The notes beneath the pieces were generated by a model that did not search any database, was not told the origin of the DNA, and worked only from the letters and a program-made list of their open reading frames with translations. DNA of 64,000 nucleotides from sequence record KX828711; one strand, given 5' to 3'. Positions 1,002-37,720 of the stretch are shown here, in pieces; the first letter of the stretch is position 1; each line of letters opens with the position of its first letter. A program made the translations under genes and the position numbers. Source of the DNA: Shigella phage SH7.

Positions 1002-1337
1002 TTATTCTTCGTCTAGCTCGTCGATAAAGGCGTCGATGGCCTCGACAACGGCATCATTGATAGCCAATAAAATAAAATCATCGTCAGTACCTTTAGAAGA
1101 TTCTAAAGCATTGATATATGCTTGGTTGGCGAGTTCCCAAGCCTTTTTAAAATAAGGAGCTTCATCATCGGGGCCAACGAAACGCACGCCTTCAAAGATA
1201 CGGTTAGCATAATCCAATACCCACTGTACAGGCATGTTTTGAGAACGTTCGTTAAACTCTTTAAATTCCTTAGATTCAAAAAGCTCTTCAGGATAATCAT
1301 TTCTATTACAAAAAGCTTTACTAAAGTTACGTTTCAT
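1002..1337 (-). CDS. hypothetical protein (111 aa, acidic C-terminus)
   Basis: ORF track; own early promoter-like element at 1363-1392. Confidence 0.55.
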   Translation of the reverse strand: MKRNFSKAFCNRNDYPEELFESKEFKEFNERSQNMPVQWVLDYANRIFEGVRFVGPDDEAPYFKKAWELANQAYINALESSKGTDDDFILLAINDAVVEAIDAFIDELDEE

Positions 1338-1362
1338 AATGTTTTCCTTGTGATGATAAGTC

Positions 1363-1392
1363 TATAGTAACGCCTTCATACTTAGATGTAAA
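1363..1392 (-). promoter_or_regulatory. T4-type early promoter-like element
   Basis: Minus strand GTTTACA, 17-nt spacer, TACTAT. Confidence 0.45.
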
Positions 1393-1546
1393 CTATTTCA
1401 ACATCGCCTTTTGCTGCTTTATAACCTTCAGCCCAAGATACAACCGAGTTTTTATCTGAAGATTCAAATTCTGGCATTGGGCTTTCGCCAATGTTCACGC
1501 AGTATGTTTCTTCATTTTCGTCGAACCAAATAATTAAAGTAGTCAT
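1382..1546 (-). CDS. small hypothetical protein (54 aa)
   Basis: Hand-translated minus-strand ORF MTTLIIWFDENEETYCVNIG... with GGAG RBS; below the 60-aa ORF-track cutoff. Confidence 0.35.
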   Translation of the reverse strand: MTTLIIWFDENEETYCVNIGESPMPEFESSDKNSVVSWAEGYKAAKGDVEIVYI

Positions 1547-2057: not shown

Positions 2058-2105
2058 GGAAAGGCCTAGATACCAAAAAGCCCCAACCTTTCGGTCGGGG
2101 CTAAG
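2058..2105 (-). terminator. tandem hairpins then T-run: terminator downstream of ORF 2110..2583
   Basis: GAGGCCCGGAAAGGCCTC hairpin plus AGCCCCAACCTTTCGGTCGGGGCT hairpin, CTTTTT on minus strand. Confidence 0.55.
2074..2105. repeat. direct repeat copy A of a 30-nt terminator hairpin module (copy B at 2630-2660)
   Basis: CAAAAAGCCCCAACCTTTCGGTCGGGGCTAAG versus TAAAAAGCCCCAACCTTTCGGCTGGGGCTAAG, flanking the internal-protein-like gene. Confidence 0.6.
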
Positions 2106-2109
2106 AATG

Positions 2110-2583
2110 TTATTTGATTTGTTTAGCAGACCAAATGCGGTCTTTAATAATTTTTTGGATGTCTTCAACATACTCAAGAGAGTGAGCATGTGGGTTATCT
2201 TTGAAACTATAAGCACGAGCTAGCTTTTGGCCTTCAGTTTTGATTACTAAAAGCTCTTTAAGGATAGCTTCATATTTGGAGATAATTCCTTTAACAATAT
2301 TTTTTTCTTGTGCAGCTTTAGGATCTGCTTTAGGAGCAGGTTTACCCGAAGCCTTTGCAAAAGCAGCGCCAGTAGCAACTAGACTTTTCCAGGCCATACT
2401 AACCGCATTTCCTGTAAATCCTTCTGCTTTCATGTCGCGAGCAAATTGGAATCGCGATTCGTCAGAAGCATCTTTATAGGAATATTTACCCGCGGCAATG
2501 GCAGCTTTTGCAACAGCTTGAATTTCAGTGCTAGATGCTTCATTTAACACCGCTTCATTTAAAAATTGAGCATATGATTTCAT
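2110..2583 (-). CDS. internal-protein-like head protein with N-terminal capsid targeting sequence (157 aa)
   Basis: N-terminus MKSYAQFLNE resembles the T4 internal protein CTS (MK-T/S-Y-x-E/Q-F-I/L-x-E, gp21 cleavage after E); minus-strand TATAAATA late promoter and AGGAAA RBS upstream; Ala/Lys-rich basic body. Confidence 0.6.
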   Translation of the reverse strand: MKSYAQFLNEAVLNEASSTEIQAVAKAAIAAGKYSYKDASDESRFQFARDMKAEGFTGNAVSMAWKSLVATGAAFAKASGKPAPKADPKAAQEKNIVKGIISKYEAILKELLVIKTEGQKLARAYSFKDNPHAHSLEYVEDIQKIIKDRIWSAKQIK

Positions 2584-2619
2584 CTTATTTCCTGTTTTAA
2601 TTCGTGGTTTTAATATACT

Positions 2620-2627
2620 TATTTATA
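2620..2627 (-). promoter_or_regulatory. late promoter TATAAATA
   Basis: Exact TATAAATA on minus strand about 35 nt upstream of the ATG at 2583. Confidence 0.55.
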
Positions 2628-2629
2628 CT

Positions 2630-2660
2630 AAAAAGCCCCAACCTTTCGGCTGGGGCTAAG
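2630..2660 (-). terminator. hairpin AGCCCCAGCCGAAAGGTTGGGGCT then T-run (near-identical copy of 2074-2105)
   Basis: Stem-loop followed by TTTTT on minus strand; closes the noncoding stretch downstream of the tRNA operon. Confidence 0.55.
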
Positions 2661-2960
2661 CCTTGCGGCAACCTTGTCGGGGTTCCACCTGCTAAGGCAA
2701 GTGTTTGTACGAAACGCCGGGATTCGAACCCGGTTACCAAGCAGTTGACGCTACTCAATATTTTTAAAAGGCCATATCTCGACCATATCCGAACGTTCCG
2801 TCAAAAACGCTACTCGGCTTACGGCAAAGATATTTCCTCGAATCGATAATTCGGTGCGCCGTTTCTGCTGTGATATAAGGGGACATTAACAGATCGTAAA
2901 GATTTGTTAATGCCAGTCCTTAAACAGGGAACATCAGTCCGACGACTTACCGGTAGCGAC
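2661..2960 (-). ncRNA. structured noncoding region, possible small stable RNA(s) or tRNA relic
   Basis: About 300 nt with no credible ORF between the 116-aa ORF and a terminator; contains a canonical tRNA T-arm (CCGGGTTCGAATCCCGG) without a full cloverleaf, an 8-bp hairpin at about 2884-2912 and a repeated GAGTAGCGT motif. Confidence 0.35.
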
Positions 2961-2968
2961 CCGGTTTC

Positions 2969-3319
2969 TTAATATTCTTTTAAAGCATCAATCTGTTCAC
3001 GACGTTTACGCCATAAATCAATTGCTTCATACGCAGATTCAGCATTTCGAATTGGACGGCATTTATATAAAGACTTGTGATTTTGATATTGCGTAGATAA
3101 CGGAATTTTATCTAAAAGGTCTTTACGTTCAAAGTATTCGTAACCATCTAAGCCAAATGAACGATTTTTGAGAAATTGCCAATGACCATATTCGTTTTCG
3201 ACATAAACATAATCCGCGTGTTGATAAAGCAAATTAATTACACGTTCAGAAATAATAGTGTCATTGTGATTAAAATAAAATGTTAAATCATGAACTACTA
3301 AATAAACATTACCTTTCAT
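2969..3319 (-). CDS. hypothetical protein (116 aa) immediately downstream of tRNA-Arg
   Basis: ORF track; GAGGAAA RBS; no separate promoter, so probably co-transcribed with the tRNA operon. Confidence 0.55.
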   Translation of the reverse strand: MKGNVYLVVHDLTFYFNHNDTIISERVINLLYQHADYVYVENEYGHWQFLKNRSFGLDGYEYFERKDLLDKIPLSTQYQNHKSLYKCRPIRNAESAYEAIDLWRKRREQIDALKEY

Positions 3320-3335: not shown

Positions 3336-3411
3336 TGGTCGAGGCAGTAGGGATCGAACCTACGACCTAGGACTTAGAAGGTCCTTGCTCTTCCTTCTGA
3401 GCTATGCCCCG
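3336..3411 (-). tRNA. tRNA-Arg (anticodon UCU)
   Basis: Hand-folded 76-nt cloverleaf: 7-bp acceptor stem, anticodon loop CUUCUAA, T-loop TTCGATC, CCA encoded. Confidence 0.8.
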
Positions 3412-3415
3412 TAAT

Positions 3416-3491
3416 TGGGGTGACCGATGGGAGTCGAACCCATGACTACGAGAATCACAATCTCGAGTTCTACCAACTGAACTACGGCCAC
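3416..3491 (-). tRNA. tRNA-His (anticodon GUG)
   Basis: 76-nt cloverleaf, anticodon loop UUGUGAU, discriminator C, CCA encoded; no encoded G at -1. Confidence 0.6.
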
Positions 3492-3604
3492 ATTAATACC
3501 TACTCCAACAATCAAGATGTCTTCACACGAAATTAAGAGAAGAGTGATCAGTTCAACCCCGATAATCGCGTCAAGTAGATATTAATGTGACAGTTGTCAC
3601 AAAT
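3492..3604 (-). other. 113-nt spacer inside the tRNA array with no cloverleaf; possible small stable RNA
   Basis: tRNA-sized gap between tRNA-Asn and tRNA-His; contains the inverted repeat TGTGACA-N2-TGTCACA next to the tRNA-Asn 3' end. Confidence 0.3.
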
Positions 3605-3680
3605 TTGGCGGACGTGATAGGATTCGAACCTATAACCAATCGCTTAACAGGCGATCGCTCTGCCATTGAGCTACACATCC
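3605..3680 (-). tRNA. tRNA-Asn (anticodon GUU)
   Basis: 76-nt cloverleaf, anticodon loop CUGUUAA, T-loop TTCGAAT, CCA encoded. Confidence 0.75.
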
Positions 3681-3684
3681 AAAT

Positions 3685-3771
3685 TGGTGGGGAGTGATGG
3701 AGTCGAACCACCCGAGTCGCAATGACAATGGATTTACAGTCCACACCGCTACCTCTACGGGATAACTCCCC
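3685..3771 (-). tRNA. tRNA-Tyr (anticodon GUA), long variable arm
   Basis: 87-nt type II cloverleaf, anticodon loop CUGUAAA, acceptor GGGGAGT/ACTCCCC, CCA encoded. Confidence 0.7.
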
Positions 3772-3784
3772 TTAATTCTTAATT

Positions 3785-3859
3785 TGGTGGCCCTAGGTGG
3801 AATTGAACCACCATCTGGCGATTATGAGTCGCTTGCTTGAACCTTCCAGCTACAGGGCC
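3785..3859 (-). tRNA. tRNA with CAU anticodon (Ile lysidine-type as in T4, or Met)
   Basis: 75-nt cloverleaf, anticodon loop CUCAUAA; sits at the position of T4 tRNA-Ile in the conserved order. Confidence 0.7.
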
Positions 3860-3860
3860 T

Positions 3861-3936
3861 TGGTGCTGATTGACGGAATCGAACCGCCGACCTTCTCATT
3901 ACAAGTGAGTTGCTCTACCTACTGAGCTAAATCAGC
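3861..3936 (-). tRNA. tRNA-Thr (anticodon UGU)
   Basis: 76-nt cloverleaf, anticodon loop CUUGUAA, CCA encoded. Confidence 0.8.
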
Positions 3937-3941
3937 AAAAC

Positions 3942-4031
3942 TGGCGGAGGCAATAGGATTTGAACCTATGAGTCGCCGGAGCGACTGCCGGTTTTCAAGA
4001 CCGGTGCATTAAACCACTCTGCCACGCCTCC
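3942..4031 (-). tRNA. tRNA-Ser (anticodon UGA), long variable arm
   Basis: 90-nt type II cloverleaf GGAGGCGTGGCAGAGTGG..., anticodon loop CUUGAAA; matches recalled T4 tRNA-Ser. Confidence 0.85.
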
Positions 4032-4033
4032 AG

Positions 4034-4107
4034 TCTCCATACAAGGATTTGAACCTTGGACCTCCTGATCCCAAATCAGGCGCTCTACCAAACTGAGCTA
4101 CACGGAG
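4034..4107 (-). tRNA. tRNA-Pro (anticodon UGG), CCA not encoded
   Basis: Cloverleaf CTCCGTGTAGCTCAGTTTGGTAGAGC..., anticodon loop UUUGGGA. Confidence 0.85.
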
Positions 4108-4117
4108 TAAATTAAAT

Positions 4118-4191
<74 letters not shown>

Positions 4192-4196
4192 AAATT

Positions 4197-4283
4197 TGGT
4201 GCGAGAAGTGGGACTCGAACCCACAAGGAAATCATTCCGCAGCATTTTAAGTGCTGTGCCTTTACCAATTTGACCATTCTCGC
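4197..4283 (-). tRNA. tRNA-Leu (anticodon UAA), long variable arm
   Basis: 87-nt type II cloverleaf GCGAGAATGGTCAAATTGG..., anticodon loop CUUAAAA, CCA encoded. Confidence 0.85.
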
Positions 4284-4284
4284 G

Positions 4285-4357
4285 CTGGGAATAAAGGACT
4301 CGAACCTTTGCATCCTGGAATCAAAATCCAGTGCCTTACCAACTTGGCTAATTCCCA
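4285..4357 (-). tRNA. tRNA-Gln (anticodon UUG), CCA not encoded
   Basis: Cloverleaf TGGGAATTAGCCAAGTTGG..., anticodon loop UUUUGAU. Confidence 0.85.
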
Positions 4358-4744: not shown

Positions 4745-5125
4745 TCAACCTTCATCAACAATAGTATGCGTATTGGCATTTACAATTTGCCACCAATCAA
4801 AGCGATTAGAACCATAATCTGGTTTGTTTTCATTTTCTTTGATAATGTCACGGAGTTCATCTTCGGTAGCGGCTTTCGCTATTAAATCAGCATATCCACC
4901 ACGAGGATAATAATTATCACCTGCAAAAAGTAAAAAGTTTGGTTTAATGTTATTGAACTCTTCAAGAGTAATAACTTTTCCTGACGGTTGAACAATCTCT
5001 ACATATTTATATCCCAATTTTTGAGCAGCATCTACTGCTTCAAGCAAAGTATCATGAGCCCATCCAATTTGACAACCTGGCTTTTCAGATGGATTAGCCT
5101 GATAATCCGCATACACTTTATACAT
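4745..5125 (-). CDS. hypothetical protein (126 aa from ATG; ORF-track start is TTG)
   Basis: ORF track; ATG MYKVYADYQ... preceded by AGGTG RBS, 1 nt after the stop of the upstream ORF. Confidence 0.5.
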   Translation of the reverse strand: MYKVYADYQANPSEKPGCQIGWAHDTLLEAVDAAQKLGYKYVEIVQPSGKVITLEEFNNIKPNFLLFAGDNYYPRGGYADLIAKAATEDELRDIIKENENKPDYGSNRFDWWQIVNANTHTIVDEG

Positions 5126-5126
5126 T

Positions 5127-5312
5127 CTATTCACCTTTAGAAATTTTATCCATAACGATAGCAATTAAACCAATTAAAAATGCTACTACAAGTGAAAAAA
5201 CATTTTCTGCTGTAGTCAATAATCCGCATATAAATCCAACAAACATTGAAAAACTAAAAGCGGAAGCAGAAATTGCAATAGCAACATTTCGAATTAATTC
5301 ACAACGTTTCAT
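5127..5312 (-). CDS. small predicted membrane protein (61 aa)
   Basis: Two hydrophobic segments (AIAISASAFSFSMFVGFICGLL and VFSLVVAFLIGLIAIVM); GAGGAG RBS; early promoter-like element upstream. Confidence 0.5.
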   Translation of the reverse strand: MKRCELIRNVAIAISASAFSFSMFVGFICGLLTTAENVFSLVVAFLIGLIAIVMDKISKGE

Positions 5313-5340
5313 TTTATTCTCCTCGGTAGTTGATAGGGTA

Positions 5341-5370
5341 ATAGTATCACTACTAAAACCCTATGTAAAC
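5341..5370 (-). promoter_or_regulatory. T4-type early promoter-like element
   Basis: Minus strand GTTTACA, 17 nt, TGATACTAT. Confidence 0.45.
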
Positions 5371-5388
5371 AACTTTGTGAAATATTTA

Positions 5389-5676
5389 TTACAAAAGATT
5401 TTTAGCAATAATCTTGAGATGTGCCGCAGAAATGTGTTTAGCTTTAAACAACGCAGTTTCTTCAGCAGGAGAGATAATGATTGTAGCACCATCCTTTTTA
5501 GCAGACCACCCATCACCTAGGTAAACAGTACCTTTGATTTCTTCGCCATCAACCAAGCTAATCATTGGTTTACCTTCTCGTCCTTTATTTGCTTTAATAA
5601 CTTCAGAAGTAAGAGTAGCTTCAGTAATAGTAGAAACCGGGGTAGTTGTAGAAGTAAACTCTTTGAAAGTTTTCAT
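5389..5676 (-). CDS. ipI: internal protein I-like (95 aa) at the ipI locus, with CTS-like N-terminus
   Basis: Position between tRNAs and gene 57B, 95 aa as for T4 IPI precursor, N-terminus MKTFKEF...; identity to T4 IPI not verified. Confidence 0.65.
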   Translation of the reverse strand: MKTFKEFTSTTTPVSTITEATLTSEVIKANKGREGKPMISLVDGEEIKGTVYLGDGWSAKKDGATIIISPAEETALFKAKHISAAHLKIIAKNLL

Positions 5677-5708
5677 TTTTTATTTTCCTAATTAATTTTG
5701 ATGAGATA

Positions 5709-5738
5709 ATAGTATCACTACCTCATCAGCATGTAAAC
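5709..5738 (-). promoter_or_regulatory. T4-type early promoter-like element upstream of ipI
   Basis: Minus strand GTTTACA, 17 nt, TGATACTAT. Confidence 0.45.
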
Positions 5739-5750
5739 AACTTTGTGAAA

Positions 5751-6447
<697 letters not shown>

Positions 6448-6448
<1 letters not shown>

Positions 6449-7161
6449 TATAGTACCTTTAGTGTATTTTTAATTTTAGAAAAAAGTTCTTCAAGAGAAC
6501 CGTCGTTTGTAATTACTAAATCGCCATCACGAATTGGCAATCCAGCTTCTGTAATATGTGTATCATTGGATTTTTGACCAGGACGAACTACATGAATTAC
6601 TGTAGCACCCATCGCCCTAGCCGCATCCATTTCATGATCTTGACGAGTATCAGGAACGATATAATAATCATAACCTGAGTTAAATTTATCAAGATAATCT
6701 AAAGCAAATAATTTTACCCAATACATGCGGTCGAAGTTATTAACAATCAAATCCGTACCTAGGGCTTGCATCAGACGACGGACTGACCATTGATCTTCAA
6801 TATTATTTATAACGTCAGTAATCTTGTTAAATGCTACGAAATTAACTGCGTCATCAAAAACAAACACACCTTTAATTGGGCTTTTACTATTAAGATAGCA
6901 AAATGCTTGTTCCATAATCGTAATTACTTCTAATTTAGTCAGATTTAAATTAGTCTCACGATCATAGTTAATTCCTTCAAACTCTTTACGAGTTAAGCAA
7001 GGATAGTCAGTGTTTGCTGCAAATACACCCCATGCATAAGCCAATGCATCCTTAATAGGACCAGCAAGTTGATATTTAACTGCAGAATAATTATTCATGA
7101 TAAAATCTGCAGTAGTATCTTTTCCACTACGCTTTACACCACTTAAAAAGATTAGTTTCAT
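6448..7161 (-). CDS. 1: deoxynucleoside monophosphate kinase gp1
   Basis: P-loop-like GVKRSGKDT near N-terminus; size and position match T4 gene 1. Confidence 0.9.
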
Positions 7162-34233: not shown

Positions 34234-34658
34234 TGCTTCTGATCCCTGAAACTCATGAATTAGTTCTCGAGAATGTCGAAGCACTTATTCCTGAAGCACA
34301 GGGTCGCTTTGACGAATTGTCTTCTGCTTTAAATAAAGACGATATAAATACAATTGTCGAGAATATGCTTGATGATGAAACTGATTTAGCGGTTGCATTA
34401 GCTTCTATTAATGAAAATATGCCGTTAAATGAATTCATCGTTAAACATGTTTCTGCCCGTGGTGAAATTACTCGCACTAAAGATCGCAAAACCCGCGAAC
34501 GAAATGCATTTCAAACCACTGGGTTGTCTAAAGCAAAACGTAGACAAATTGCTCGTAAAGCTACCAAAACGAAGATTGCCAATCCAGCAGGTCAATCTCG
34601 TGCTCAGCGTAAGCGTAAAAAAGCTCTTAAACGCCGTAAAGCATTAGGATTAAGCTAA
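34233..34658 (+). CDS. 68: gp68 prohead core protein
   Basis: 141 aa, T4 order. Confidence 0.85.
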
Positions 34659-35296
34659 TGAATGAACCCCAATTACTAATTGAAACTTGGGGTCAACCTG
34701 GCGAAATTATTGATGGCGTACCAATGCTTGAATCTCATGATGGAAAAGACTTAGGTTTAAAACCTGGTTTATACATCGAAGGAATATTCATGCAAGCGGA
34801 AGTCGTCAATAGAAATAAACGTCTTTATCCAAAACGTATATTAGAAAAAGCGGTAAAAGACTATATTAATGAGCAAGTTTTAACTAAACAAGCTCTCGGA
34901 GAATTAAATCATCCTCCACGCGCTAATGTTGACCCGATGCAAGCCGCTATCATTATAGAAGATATGTGGTGGAAAGGAAATGACGTATACGGACGAGCTC
35001 GTGTTATTGAAGGTGACCATGGTCCTGGAGATAAATTAGCAGCTAATATTCGTGCCGGATGGATTCCAGGAGTTTCTTCTCGTGGATTAGGTTCATTGAC
35101 TGACACAAATAAAGGTTATCGTATAGTAAACGAAGGATTCAAATTAACTGTAGGTGTTGATGCAGTATGGGGCCCAAGTGCTCCAGATGCATGGGTAACT
35201 CCTAAGGAAATTACCGAATCACAGACGGCGGAAGCCGATACAAGTGCCGATGACGCCTATATGGCTCTCGCAGAGGCCATGAAAAAAGCGTTATAA
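34658..35296 (+). CDS. 21: gp21 prohead core protease
   Basis: 212 aa, T4 order. Confidence 0.95.
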   Translation: MNEPQLLIETWGQPGEIIDGVPMLESHDGKDLGLKPGLYIEGIFMQAEVVNRNKRLYPKRILEKAVKDYINEQVLTKQALGELNHPPRANVDPMQAAIIIEDMWWKGNDVYGRARVIEGDHGPGDKLAANIRAGWIPGVSSRGLGSLTDTNKGYRIVNEGFKLTVGVDAVWGPSAPDAWVTPKEITESQTAEADTSADDAYMALAEAMKKAL

Positions 35297-35326: not shown

Positions 35327-36136
35327 ATGCTTAAAGAACAACTGATTGCCGAAGCGCAGAAAATTGATGCTTCTGTTGCTCTTGATAGTATTTTCGAATC
35401 AGTTAATATTTCTCCGGAAGCAAAAGAAACTTTCGGCACTGTATTCGAAGCTACCGTCAAGCAGCACGCCGTTAAATTAGCTGAATCTCATATCGCTAAA
35501 ATTGCTGAAAAAGCAGAAGAAGAAGTAGAAAAAAATAAAGAAGAAGCCGAAGAAAAAGCTGAGAAGAAAATCGCTGAGCAAGCTTCTAAATTCATTGACC
35601 ATCTTGCAAAAGAATGGCTCGCTGAAAATAAATTAGCAGTTGATAAAGGCATCAAAGCTGAACTGTTTGAATCCATGCTTGGTGGATTAAAAGAGCTCTT
35701 TGTTGAACACAACGTTGTTGTTCCAGAAGAATCAGTTGATGTTGTAGCTGAAATGGAAGAAGAGTTGCAAGAACATAAAGAAGAATCAGCTCGTCTGTTC
35801 GAAGAACTCAATATGCGCGACGCATATATCAATTATGTGCAGCGTGAAGTGGCATTGAGCGAAAGTACTAAAGATCTGACTGAGTCTCAAAAAGAAAAAG
35901 TCTCTGCTCTGGTCGAAGGTATGGATTATTCAGATGCATTCTCAAGTAAATTGAGTGCCATCGTAGAAATGGTGAAGAAGTCTAATAAAGATGAAAGCAC
36001 TATTACTGAGGGTATAAATACTCCTGATACTGAAGCAGCCGGACTGAATTTCGTCACTGAAGCTGTAGAAGATAAAGCTGCACAGGGTGCAGAAGATATT
36101 GTAAGTGTATATGCGAAAGTCGCATCTCGTTTCTAA
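35327..36136 (+). CDS. 22: gp22 prohead core scaffold protein
   Basis: 269 aa, acidic coiled-coil protein, T4 order. Confidence 0.95.
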   Translation: MLKEQLIAEAQKIDASVALDSIFESVNISPEAKETFGTVFEATVKQHAVKLAESHIAKIAEKAEEEVEKNKEEAEEKAEKKIAEQASKFIDHLAKEWLAENKLAVDKGIKAELFESMLGGLKELFVEHNVVVPEESVDVVAEMEEELQEHKEESARLFEELNMRDAYINYVQREVALSESTKDLTESQKEKVSALVEGMDYSDAFSSKLSAIVEMVKKSNKDESTITEGINTPDTEAAGLNFVTEAVEDKAAQGAEDIVSVYAKVASRF

Positions 36137-36154: not shown

Positions 36155-37720
36155 ATGACTATCAAAACTAAAGCTGAACTTTTGAACAAATGGAAGCCAT
36201 TACTGGAAGGTGAAGGTTTACCGGAAATTGCTAATAGCAAACAAGCGATTATCGCTAAAATCTTTGAAAACCAGGAAAAAGATTTCCAGACAGCTCCGGA
36301 ATATAAAGACGAAAAAATTGCTCAGGCATTCGGTTCTTTCTTAACAGAAGCTGAAATCGGTGGTGACCACGGTTACAATGCTACTAACATCGCTGCAGGT
36401 CAGACTTCTGGCGCAGTAACTCAGATTGGCCCAGCTGTTATGGGTATGGTACGTCGTGCTATTCCTAACCTGATTGCTTTCGATATTTGTGGTGTTCAGC
36501 CGATGAACAGCCCGACCGGTCAGGTATTCGCACTGCGTGCAGTATACGGTAAAGACCCAATCGCTGCCGGTGCTAAAGAAGCATTCCACCCAATGTATGG
36601 TCCAGATGCAATGTTCTCTGGTCAGGGTGCTGCTAAGAAATTCACAGCTCTGGCTGCTAGCACACAAACCACAGTAGGTGATATCTATACTCACTTCTTC
36701 CAGGACACTGGTACTGTGTATCTGCAGGCTTCTGCTCAAGTAACAATTAGTTCTACTGCAGATGATGCAGCTAAATTAGATGCTGAAATTAAGAAACAAA
36801 TGGAAGCTGGTGCACTGGTAGAAATCGCTGAAGGTATGGCTACTTCTATCGCTGAACTTCAGGAAAGTTTCAACGGTTCCACCGATAACCCATGGAATGA
36901 AATGGGCTTCCGTATCGATAAGCAAGTTATTGAAGCTAAATCTCGCCAGCTGAAAGCTGCTTACTCTATCGAATTAGCACAGGACCTCCGCGCTGTTCAC
37001 GGTATGGATGCTGATGCTGAACTGTCTGGTATTCTGGCTACCGAAATCATGCTGGAAATCAACCGTGAAGTTGTTGATTGGATTAACTACTCAGCTCAGG
37101 TTGGTAAATCTGGTATGACCCTGACTCCGGGTTCTAAAGCTGGTGTATTTGACTTCCAGGATCCGATTGATATTCGTGGTGCTCGCTGGGCGGGTGAATC
37201 CTTTAAAGCTCTGTTGTTCCAGATTGACAAAGAAGCAGTTGAAATTGCTCGTCAGACCGGTCGTGGTGAAGGTAACTTCATTATCGCTTCCCGTAACGTA
37301 GTTAACGTTCTGGCTTCAGTTGATACCGGCATTTCTTATGCTGCACAAGGTCTGGCTACCGGCTTTAACACTGATACTACCAAGTCAGTATTTGCTGGTG
37401 TTCTGGGTGGTAAATACCGTGTATATATCGACCAGTATGCTAAACAGGATTATTTCACTGTAGGTTATAAAGGTCCGAACGAAATGGATGCTGGTATTTA
37501 CTATGCTCCATATGTAGCTCTGACTCCGCTGCGTGGTTCCGATCCGAAGAACTTCCAACCGGTAATGGGGTTCAAAACTCGTTACGGTATCGGTATCAAC
37601 CCATTTGCAGAATCCGCTGCTCAGGCTCCGGCTTCTCGCATCCAGAGCGGTATGCCTTCTATTCTGAATAGCCTTGGTAAAAACGCTTACTTCCGCCGTG
37701 TATATGTTAAAGGTATCTAA
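36155..37720 (+). CDS. 23: gp23 major capsid protein
   Basis: 521 aa, T4 order; higher GC content and host-like codon usage typical of this highly expressed gene. Confidence 0.97.
   Translation: MTIKTKAELLNKWKPLLEGEGLPEIANSKQAIIAKIFENQEKDFQTAPEYKDEKIAQAFGSFLTEAEIGGDHGYNATNIAAGQTSGAVTQIGPAVMGMVRRAIPNLIAFDICGVQPMNSPTGQVFALRAVYGKDPIAAGAKEAFHPMYGPDAMFSGQGAAKKFTALAASTQTTVGDIYTHFFQDTGTVYLQASAQVTISSTADDAAKLDAEIKKQMEAGALVEIAEGMATSIAELQESFNGSTDNPWNEMGFRIDKQVIEAKSRQLKAAYSIELAQDLRAVHGMDADAELSGILATEIMLEINREVVDWINYSAQVGKSGMTLTPGSKAGVFDFQDPIDIRGARWAGESFKALLFQIDKEAVEIARQTGRGEGNFIIASRNVVNVLASVDTGISYAAQGLATGFNTDTTKSVFAGVLGGKYRVYIDQYAKQDYFTVGYKGPNEMDAGIYYAPYVALTPLRGSDPKNFQPVMGFKTRYGIGINPFAESAAQAPASRIQSGMPSILNSLGKNAYFRRVYVKGI

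What the first reader, a model, noticed from the sequence alone, without database searches (positions are those of the whole stretch)
2058..2660. Internal-protein-like gene with a capsid targeting sequence, packaged as a cassette between repeated terminator hairpins
ORF 2110..2583 begins MKSYAQFLNE, a good match to the N-terminal capsid targeting sequence of T4 internal proteins, which gp21 cleaves after the Glu. It has an exact TATAAATA late promoter and strong RBS, and it is flanked on both sides by nearly identical 30-nt hairpin terminator modules in direct orientation (2074-2105 and 2630-2660). It lies on the far side of the tRNA array from the canonical ipI locus. Injected internal proteins are known anti-restriction factors (T4 IPI blocks GmrSD), so this may be an alternative injected anti-defence protein that moves by recombination between the repeats.
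Basis: partly seen in the sequence, partly recalled or inferred. Interest (0 to 1): 0.55.

Follow-up and report, generated by a model that had tools for sequence, protein, structure and literature searches.

The report
Unrecognised third internal-protein locus in T4-like phage
A small late gene just past the phage's tRNA genes carries the address tag that T4-like phages use to load proteins into the capsid and inject them, so it is probably an unannotated injected protein; it lies at a third site the literature I could read does not list, and T2, T4 and T6 lack it.

Summary
A 157-aa ORF on the minus strand (2583..2110) begins MKSYAQFLNE|A. It has an exact TATAAATA late promoter 36 nt upstream and an AGGAAA ribosome-binding site. 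A 36-nt direct repeat (33/36 identical, 555 nt apart) flanks it, and its core is a strong terminator hairpin.

T4, T2, T6, PST and RB6 have a single hairpin at this spot, an empty site. RB32 and NBG2 have this gene. DalCa has it plus a second gene with the same kind of leader.

The leader matches IPIII at all four experimentally critical positions (Y4, F7, L8, E10). It is conserved in relatives below 30% identity. The protein is basic and lysine-rich like known internal proteins, and dN/dS is 0.03-0.09. The window also encodes the prohead protease gp21, and its gp23 is cut at FLTE|A.

The slot (tRNA array, terminator, gene, e.x genes) is shared by Tequatrovirus, Mosigvirus and Jiaodavirus. I found the gene at no other position, so "moves" is not supported.

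Best reading: a new internal-protein family at a third IP locus, annotated "hypothetical" in about 500 genomes. Packaging, cleavage and anti-defence activity are inferred, not shown.

The parts
2625..2660 (-). Upstream copy of the 36-nt direct repeat. Its core (2657..2630) is the intrinsic terminator hairpin that ends the tRNA/rnaD/rnaC transcription unit.
   Evidence: The same hairpin is the only copy at the empty site in T4, T2 and T6.
2620..2627 (-). T4-type late promoter TATAAATA. It overlaps the 3' edge of the repeat and lies 36 nt upstream of the ATG.
   Evidence: An exact TATAAATA or AATAAATA sits at the same place in orthologues. No sigma-70-like site was called between the hairpin and the ATG.
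2588..2593 (-). Ribosome-binding site AGGAAA, 4 nt before the ATG.
   Evidence: read directly from the sequence.
2110..2583 (-). CDS of 157 aa: candidate internal protein, orthologue of RB32ORF133c, member of phrog_2280. Layout: leader residues 1-10 (or 1-15), helical N-domain about 16-75, K/P/A-rich linker 76-95, helical-hairpin C-domain 96-157.
2539..2583 (-). Codons 1-15: leader MKSYAQFLNE|AVLNE|A, with two consecutive L-x-E|A sites that fit the gp21 cleavage motif.
   Evidence: CTS determinants are taken from PMC9026906.
2070..2105 (-). Downstream copy of the 36-nt repeat. The hairpin at 2102..2075 terminates the cassette transcript.
2708..2969 (-). Context: homologues of the T4 stable RNAs rnaD (2969..2853) and rnaC (2846..2708), the last genes of the tRNA operon.
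   Evidence: 135/139 and 102/116 identical to T4.
34658..35296 (+). Context: prohead protease gp21 (Peptidase_S77), the enzyme expected to remove the leader. The scaffold gene gp22 follows at 35327-36136. gp23 at 36155-37720 carries the FLTE|A cleavage site.

Best explanation
The ORF encodes a previously unannotated T-even-type internal protein (IP).

How it most likely works (all inferred from sequence):
1. The upstream hairpin stops early and middle transcription coming out of the tRNA operon.
2. The gene is then transcribed on its own from the TATAAATA late promoter, at the time proheads are built.
3. Its first 10 residues act as a capsid targeting sequence that carries the protein into the gp22 scaffolding core.
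4. The prohead protease gp21 removes the leader after Glu10 (FLNE|A), and possibly also after Glu15 (VLNE|A).
5. The basic, lysine-rich mature protein of about 15.5 kDa stays with the packaged DNA and is injected with it.
6. By analogy with the four characterised T-even IPs I found, its most likely job in the host is to block an early DNA-targeting defence, most probably a type IV restriction enzyme variant. This last step is the least certain.

What is shown:
- The cassette (late promoter, RBS, gene, terminator) is bounded by a 36-nt direct repeat of the tRNA-operon terminator.
- Homologous recombination between the two copies would give exactly the gene-less, single-hairpin state seen in T4, T2 and T6.
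- The slot is a third IP locus, syntenic across at least three genera. In some phages it holds a second, unrelated gene with the same kind of leader.
For: Leader:
- Residues Y4, F7, L8 and E10 equal or fit the four positions shown by amber-suppressor analysis of IPIII to control targeting (4, 7) and processing (8, 10). The gp21 motif is L/I-x-E (PMC9026906; sequence).
- It is the only strict match in the window and ranks 2nd of 1,104 starts on a known-IP matrix.
- The leader M-x-x-[FY]-x-x-F-L-x-E-[AG] is kept in almost all family members, down to under 30% identity, although the family has only 13 cluster representatives among 1.84 billion proteins.

Processing machinery in the same window:
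- gp21 Peptidase_S77 scores E = 1.5e-111. gp22 and gp67 are also present.
- gp23 has FLTE|A at residues 62-66.

Expression signals:
- Exact late promoter and RBS, conserved in orthologues.
- No sigma-70-like site was called between the hairpin and the ATG.

Protein properties:
- pI 9.5 and 13.6% Lys, within the range of IPI, IPII, IPIII, Ip4, Ip5 and Ip7.
- It is a real gene: dN/dS 0.03-0.09, including against a Mosigvirus orthologue with dS of about 1.7.

Locus behaviour:
- Empty site in T4, T2, T6, PST and RB6. One cassette in the window, NBG2 and RB32. Two in DalCa. All junctions fall at the hairpin.
- The second gene starts MKTYAEFLTEAA and scores 25.8 on the IP matrix.
- The AG/GA hairpin variant sits in the upstream copy here and in the downstream copy in RB32, which is consistent with exchange between copies.

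Function prior:
- Ip1, Ip2 and Ip3 each inhibit a distinct GmrSD enzyme (PMC12373910).
- Bas37_0260 inhibits McrBC (bioRxiv 10.1101/2025.11.20.689424).
Against: - No direct evidence that the protein is in virions, is cleaved or is injected. I found no virion proteomics covering it.
- Three of the ten leader residues (S3, A5, Q6) were not seen in the eight known-IP leaders used, so its matrix score (11.0) is well below canonical IPs (25-33).
- The family is strongly conserved and syntenic across genera. This is unlike the rapid replacement typical of the two canonical IP loci, and could point to a housekeeping role in the head rather than an arms-race role.
- No sequence or fold similarity to IPI, IPII, IPIII, Ip4 or any solved structure, so the target cannot be inferred.
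- The published generalisation is that IP genes occur only at two loci (PMC2839356).
Confidence: 0.68

Rival explanations
1. The protein is packaged and processed as above, but its role is physical rather than anti-defence. It would be a histone-like internal protein whose K/P/A-rich linker and basic charge help neutralise or organise the packaged DNA, or help it exit.
For: - A lysine/proline/alanine-rich low-complexity linker is present in every family member, although its sequence drifts.
- pI is 9.5.
- Strong purifying selection and conserved synteny across genera fit a conserved structural role better than an arms-race role.
- Lysines of internal proteins contact DNA phosphates in T4 heads (PMC3012670).
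Against: - T4, T2, T6, PST and RB6 do without the gene, so no general structural need exists.
- The four T-even IPs I found with a known function are all type IV restriction inhibitors.
- The two folded helical domains suggest a specific binding function.
Confidence: 0.25
2. The gene is expressed late but its product is not packaged. The IP-like N-terminus would be a by-product of modular shuffling: at IP loci the RBS and the first 30 or so coding nucleotides are part of the recombining homology, so a leader can be carried onto an unrelated gene.
For: - At the canonical ipI locus the repeated element does extend through the RBS into the leader codons (families D2 and D3).
- The two genes at this locus share nothing detectable beyond the leader by BLASTP or hhalign.
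Against: - The leader is sufficient for packaging of foreign proteins in T4 (PMC9026906), so a late-made protein carrying it should be packaged whatever its origin.
- The leader is conserved in distant homologues whose DNA is no longer similar, which implies selection on the peptide itself.
Confidence: 0.08
3. It is a prohead-core accessory that is degraded or expelled during maturation, like gp22, gp67 and gp68, rather than retained and injected.
For: - It has three L/I-x-E motifs (ending at residues 10, 15 and 110).
- It is helical and coiled-coil-like, as gp22 is.
Against: - Only one internal motif exists, inside a predicted long helix.
- Core proteins are acidic and essential, whereas this protein is basic and dispensable (absent from T4).
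- No similarity to gp22, gp67 or gp68 families in Pfam or PHROGs.
Confidence: 0.05

Closest known systems
T-even internal proteins IPI, IPII, IPIII and the alternative Ip4-Ip10 series (Repoila et al. 1994; Black laboratory)
   Same: - An N-terminal 10-residue capsid targeting sequence ending in L/I-x-E|A.
- Small, basic and lysine-rich; non-essential.
- Present or absent between close relatives.
- The gene is bounded by short direct repeats of a regulatory element.
- Encoded next to the tRNA region.
   Different: - No sequence or predicted-fold similarity beyond the leader.
- Lies at a third locus (rnaC-e.8), not at 57B-trna.4 or denV-e.
- The flanking repeat is a G+C-rich terminator hairpin and the promoter is late-type. 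At the canonical ipI locus the repeats are early-promoter elements.
- The family is conserved and syntenic across genera rather than constantly replaced.
PeSL cassettes (promoter-early stem-loop) of T4-type phages (Arbiol et al. 2010, PMC2839356; Comeau et al. 2014, PMC4122927)
   Same: - A single accessory ORF is bracketed by repeated stem-loop terminators with GGGG...CCCC stems.
- Insertion/deletion differences between close relatives map to the repeats.
- T4-type recombination is reported to need only short patches of homology, under 50 bp.
   Different: - The promoter joined to the stem-loop is the late TATAAATA, not a sigma-70-like early promoter.
- Only one locus and two or three copies are involved, not a genome-wide family.
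- Mini-circle formation was not tested.
Bas37_0260 (McrBC inhibitor) and Ip2/Ip3 (GmrSD inhibitors)
   Same: IPs recognised only by their leader and otherwise orphan proteins. This is the functional class I consider most likely for this ORF.
   Different: Those proteins have demonstrated targets and lie at the canonical loci. No target is known here and there is no homology to them.

Membership tests
T-even internal proteins (CTS-targeted, gp21-processed, injected) | N-terminal capsid targeting sequence. The residues critical for targeting are positions 4 and 7 of the IPIII leader. | tested here: met
   Y4 and F7 are identical to IPIII (MKTYQEFIAE against MKSYAQFLNE). Determinants are from PMC9026906. 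It is the unique strict match in the window and ranks 2nd of 1,104 starts on the IP matrix.
T-even internal proteins (CTS-targeted, gp21-processed, injected) | gp21 cleavage motif L/I-x-E at the end of the leader (processing positions 8 and 10). | tested here: met
   L8-N9-E10|A11, and again L13-N14-E15|A16. The same phage's gp23 has F-L-T-E65|A66.
T-even internal proteins (CTS-targeted, gp21-processed, injected) | The phage encodes the prohead protease and scaffolding core that receive and process CTS proteins. | tested here: met
   gp21 (Peptidase_S77), gp22 (T4_CASP) and gp67 are in the window.
T-even internal proteins (CTS-targeted, gp21-processed, injected) | Synthesis during prohead assembly (late expression). 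| tested here: met
   Exact TATAAATA 36 nt upstream, directly after a terminator and conserved in orthologues. This is sequence evidence only; no transcript data.
T-even internal proteins (CTS-targeted, gp21-processed, injected) | Small, basic, lysine-rich mature protein. | tested here: met
   147 aa after cleavage, pI 9.5, 13.6% Lys. Known IPs: 70-183 aa, pI 8.2-9.7, 11-16% Lys.
T-even internal proteins (CTS-targeted, gp21-processed, injected) | Physically present in virions in processed form, and injected with the DNA. | not testable with these tools
   No virion mass-spectrometry data found. The AR1 virion-proteome paper and Repoila 1994 are not held.
T-even internal proteins (CTS-targeted, gp21-processed, injected) | Encoded at one of the two recognised IP loci (a published generalisation, not a mechanistic requirement). 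| tested here: not met
   It lies between rnaC and e.8. PMC2839356 and PMC12373910 speak of two loci only.
PeSL-type mobile regulatory cassettes | A stable stem-loop terminator is repeated on both sides of an accessory ORF, with indel junctions in the repeat. | tested here: met
PeSL-type mobile regulatory cassettes | A sigma-70-like early promoter is joined to the stem-loop. | tested here: not met
   No sigma-70-like site was called between the hairpin and the ATG. A late promoter is there instead.
PeSL-type mobile regulatory cassettes | Excision as mini-circles, or occurrence of the same cassette at several genome positions. | tested here: not met
   All homologues in well-assembled genomes lie in the same slot. 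The only exception is a 261-kb record that looks rearranged. Mini-circles cannot be tested here.
Type IV restriction (GmrSD/McrBC) inhibitors IPI*, Ip2, Ip3, Bas37_0260 | Homology to a characterised inhibitor, or demonstrated inhibition. | tested here: not met
   Only the leader aligns with IPIII (hhalign probability 12%). T4 IPI, IPII and IPIII fall in different PHROGs. No match in PDB or BFVD outside the family itself. Activity cannot be tested here.

The most novel reading that the evidence does not exclude
Tevenvirinae carry an ancestral third internal-protein locus at the 3' end of the tRNA operon. Its resident protein is a conserved two-domain, late-only, CTS-targeted protein with a histone-like linker. 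It is injected and neutralises a host defence different from those blocked by Ip1, Ip2, Ip3 or Bas37_0260. Because T2, T4 and T6 have all lost it, fifty years of work on internal proteins missed it.
Probability: 0.3. Interest if true: 0.65.

Novelty: new member of a known kind. Interest (0 to 1): 0.5.

Why it matters
The four T-even internal proteins I found with a known function (Ip1, Ip2, Ip3 and Bas37_0260) are all injected inhibitors of type IV restriction enzymes, and each is specific for one enzyme variant. These results date mostly from 2022-2025.

A further leader-bearing protein that is called "hypothetical" in about 500 sequenced phages is therefore a ready-made candidate anti-defence factor. 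Many of those phages are therapeutic or biocontrol candidates.

T2, T4 and T6 are natural nulls, so the gene can be added back and tested directly.

The finding also corrects the working assumption that IP genes are confined to two loci. It shows a late-promoter, terminator-bounded version of the cassette architecture.

Tried and rejected
Searches that gave nothing informative for the ORF:
- Pfam and NCBIfam.
- PDB by sequence profile.
- Foldseek against PDB: only generic helical hairpins, all with E of 1 or more.
- Foldseek against BFVD: only its own family and one uncharacterised Serratia phage PS2 protein.
- PHROGs gave one family of unknown function, phrog_2280.

Homology tests that failed:
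- The coincidence in length with Ip4 of RB32 (also 157 aa) is not homology.
- The second gene at the locus (DalCa_133) shares nothing with this ORF beyond the leader by BLASTP or hhalign. Both nevertheless match phrog_2280 full-length, and I did not resolve that discrepancy.

An idea I dropped:
- I first read the Klebsiella phage K6 homologue as lying at a different locus, next to a gp19-like gene and a GIY-YIG gene.
- In Jiaodavirus Mineola the same gene is in the tRNA-distal slot, so the 261-kb K6 record is probably rearranged.

Literature:
- Nothing found for RB32ORF133c or phrog_2280.
- No virion proteomics in the fPS-2 paper. The phiR1-RT proteome is not relevant because that phage showed no close homologue.
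- One search on Ip5/Ip7/Ip9 returned only inositol-phosphate papers.
- Repoila 1994, Comeau 2007, the AR1 paper and the Black-laboratory IPI papers are not held. I therefore cannot exclude that one of them mentions this gene.

Full report
**What is in the sequence**

The window is a T4-like (Tequatrovirus) genome in the orientation of the T4 GenBank record.
- e.6 and e.8 homologues lie at the left.
- An 11-tRNA array is at 3336-4357.
- ipI (identical to T4 IPI) is at 5389-5676. Genes 57B, 57A, 1, 3 and 2 follow.

The ORF in question is on the minus strand: ATG at 2583, stop at 2110-2112, 157 aa, MKSYAQFLNEAVLNEASS....

On that strand, in order:
1. The rnaC homologue ends at 2708.
2. A hairpin terminator AGCCCCAGCCGAAAGGTTGGGGC + TTTTT occupies 2657-2630.
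3. TATAAATA occupies 2627-2620.
4. AGGAAA occupies 2593-2588.
5. The ORF.
6. A second hairpin AGCCCCGACCGAAAGGTTGGGGC + TTTTT occupies 2102-2075.

The repeat finder reports one direct repeat in the region: 36 nt, at 2070-2105 and 2625-2660, 92% identical, 555 nt apart. The 28-nt core occurs only twice in 64 kb, with none expected by chance. As minus-strand RNA both hairpins fold at about -20.5 kcal/mol (z = -5.1 and -4.0) with a GAAA loop. The plus-strand versions are weaker. The only corrections are the strand and the slightly longer repeat.

**The site is polymorphic exactly at the repeat**

| State | Genomes | Evidence |
|---|---|---|
| Empty: one hairpin, then GGTATCTAGGCC and the e.8 early promoter | T4, T2, T6, PST | |
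| One cassette | window, NBG2, RB32 | |
| Two cassettes in tandem | DalCa | |

In DalCa the second gene is 187 aa and starts MKTYAEFLTEAA. It ends with a different hairpin followed by the same CTTTTTGGTATCTAGG.

The RB32 GenBank record (2006) already notes that RB32ORF133c is "flanked by 34 bp imperfect direct repeat", but calls it hypothetical.

The AG/GA variant inside the hairpin sits in the upstream copy here and in the downstream copy in RB32. NBG2 has GA in both. That is what exchange between the two copies would produce.

Counts in the phage collection:
- tblastn finds this gene in 510 records, 468 of them full length.
- The second gene is in 165 records.
- About 690 records hold the flanks.
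- In an even sample of 60 of those, roughly 6 were empty like T4.

The classical T-even phages are therefore the minority state.

**The locus is fixed, not wandering**

Orthologues or homologues lie directly after the last tRNA or rnaC terminator and before the e.x genes in:
- Mosigvirus (MM02; IMG/VR loci L015-L017);
- further Tequatrovirus contigs (L013, L014);
- Jiaodavirus Mineola;
- an unclassified IMG/VR contig, L019, about 230 nt after tRNA-Thr.

In fHe-Yen9-01 the homologue is about 1 kb from a tRNA, inside an operon and without a hairpin.

A Klebsiella record that seemed to place the gene elsewhere is 261 kb long and evidently rearranged.

I found no case of the cassette at another genome position. 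The repeats therefore account for loss or gain at one ancestral slot. Deletion in the T4, T2 and T6 lineages is the simplest reading. They do not account for movement around the genome.

**Is it an internal protein?**

The review of the Black laboratory's work states three things (PMC9026906):
- The first 10 residues of IPIII suffice for packaging.
- Positions 4 and 7 matter for targeting, and positions 8 and 10 for processing.
- gp21 cuts after L/I-x-E.

The ORF has Y4, F7, L8 and E10. Its differences from IPIII (T3S, Q5A, E6Q, A9N) fall at the other positions.

Specificity in the window:
- Only IPI and this ORF start MK[ST][YF] among all ATG ORFs of 40 aa or more.
- On a matrix built from eight distinct known-IP leaders, the ORF is second of 1,104 candidate starts. 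Its score is 11.0, against a background of -19.5 +/- 6.4 and a next best of 6.1. This is well below canonical leaders.

The more persuasive evidence is conservation. A full HMM scan of 1.84 billion representatives finds only 13 clusters. Apart from internal fragments, they nearly all begin M-x-x-[FY]-x-x-F-L-x-E-[AG], even at under 30% identity elsewhere. Examples are MLKFNEFLAEG, MINFSDFLNEG and MKSFSSFLNEG.

The same window encodes gp21 (Peptidase_S77), gp22 and gp67. Its gp23 carries FLTE65|A66, which is almost the ORF's FLNE10|A11.

After cleavage the protein would be 147 aa, pI 9.5 and 13.6% Lys, inside the range of IPI, IPII, IPIII, Ip4, Ip5 and Ip7.

It is under strong purifying selection: dN/dS is 0.03-0.09, including against a Mosigvirus orthologue with dS of about 1.7.

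AlphaFold gives a moderately confident (pLDDT 75) all-helical model. It has a disordered leader, a three-helix N-domain, a K/P/A-rich linker and a long helical hairpin.

**Expression**

The late promoter is exact. It follows the terminator T-run directly (CTTTTTAGTATAAATA). The same junction, or a one-base variant, is kept in orthologues in other genera. No sigma-70-like site was called between the hairpin and the ATG, and I saw no MotA-box-like TGCTT there on direct reading of the sequence.

The canonical ipI locus is built differently. In this window and in RB32, IP genes there are bracketed by 54-69-nt repeats consisting of a T4 early promoter, the RBS and the leader codons. This locus is therefore a late-only, terminator-bounded variant of the IP cassette design.

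**Function**

Nothing in Pfam, NCBIfam, PDB (by sequence or fold) or BFVD indicates an activity. Only the leader aligns with IPIII or with the neighbouring second gene.

The inference of an anti-defence role rests on precedent:
- Ip1, Ip2 and Ip3 each block a distinct GmrSD enzyme (PMC12373910).
- IPIII works without its leader when supplied in the host (PMC9391042).
- A further IP, Bas37_0260, blocks McrBC (bioRxiv 10.1101/2025.11.20.689424).

Against a pure arms-race role stand the family's conservation and synteny. A DNA-associated "histone-like" role is the main rival. The two roles are not mutually exclusive.

**Comparison with what is known, and novelty**

IP genes, the capsid targeting sequence, their polymorphism and their repeat-bounded cassettes are long known (Repoila 1994, as cited). 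Repeat-mediated shuffling of ORFs between stem-loop elements is also known (PMC2839356, PMC4122927).

What appears unrecognised in the literature I could read:
- This gene family is an IP candidate. It is "hypothetical protein" in essentially every record. A single UniRef entry for a Klebsiella phage homologue calls it "internal head protein".
- It defines a third IP locus. [quoted passage not shown] Silas et al. 2025 speak of "the two Ip loci".

I could not read Repoila 1994 or Comeau 2007, so earlier mention cannot be excluded.

I classify it as a new member of a known kind. Interest is moderate: it is a concrete, testable lead rather than a new principle.

**Confidence**
- That the gene is real, late-type and repeat-bounded: near certain.
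- That the product is packaged and gp21-processed: about 0.75.
- That it is an anti-defence factor: about 0.45.
- For the combined statement as worded: 0.68.

Noticed in passing
L002 (phage DalCa) 3209-3772, minus strand; absent from the window: A second gene with an IP-type leader (187 aa, MKTYAEFLTEAA) sits in tandem right after this gene in DalCa. It is found in 165 phage records and has its own terminator with a different stem. Its upstream promoter-like element is AATAAATA rather than TATAAATA.
   Followed up: partly
window 2630-2657 and 2075-2102; L004 (RB32) 5927-5954 and 6482-6509: The two-base AG/GA difference in the hairpin stem is in the upstream copy in this window, in the downstream copy in RB32, and absent in NBG2. 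This suggests gene conversion or crossover between the two repeat copies.
   Followed up: partly
P0014 (94 aa, from a 2.9-kb Logan contig), compared with window 4745-5164 and 2110-2205: This is a chimeric protein. The N-terminal part matches trna.3 and is fused at ...IIKEN|PHAHSLEY... to the last 32 residues of this ORF. That implies a deletion of about 2.6 kb that removed the whole tRNA array, rnaC/rnaD and most of this gene.
   Followed up: no
window 5330-5383 and 5698-5751: The canonical ipI gene is flanked by a 54-nt direct repeat (81% identical, spacing 368). The repeat is a T4 early promoter (GTTTACA...TACTAT). RB32 has four such copies around Ip5, Ip9 and Ip7, extending into the leader codons.
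   Followed up: yes
window 2539-2568 (residues 6-15): The leader region reads FLNEA-VLNEA, which looks like a 5-residue tandem duplication giving two consecutive gp21-type sites. Mosigvirus and Jiaodavirus homologues have only one.
   Followed up: no
L015 2782-2875: ARAGORN calls a 'tRNA-Stop (anticodon tta)' of 94 nt between tRNA-Arg and the IP-like gene in a Mosigvirus contig, in the region where rnaD/rnaC lie. It may be a tRNA-like stable RNA rather than a suppressor tRNA.
   Followed up: no
window 2708-2969: Homologues of the T4 stable RNAs rnaC (135/139 identical) and rnaD (102/116) are present, but no Rfam family matches them at E of 0.1 or below. The 116-aa ORF at 2969-3319 ends exactly where the rnaD homologue begins.
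   Followed up: partly
window 3336-4357, against L003 (T4): The tRNA array has 11 genes. His, Asn, Tyr and Met are present here but not annotated in T4. T4's Ile gene and the segB homing endonuclease are missing. A 116-aa ORF, also present in T2 and DalCa, lies just beyond tRNA-Arg at the rnaD end of the array.
   Followed up: no
L006 (Klebsiella phage vB_Kpn_AM_K6, PP355768, 261 kb): The record places the homologue beside a gp19-like gene and a GIY-YIG gene with no tRNAs nearby. Related Jiaodavirus genomes of about 167 kb have it after the tRNA array. The record looks mis-assembled or rearranged.
   Followed up: partly
window 1002-1546: e.7 of T4 is replaced here by two other small ORFs (111 aa and 54 aa). 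RB32 has yet another replacement (RB32ORF130c). The whole e.x stretch next to the cassette is variable.
   Followed up: no
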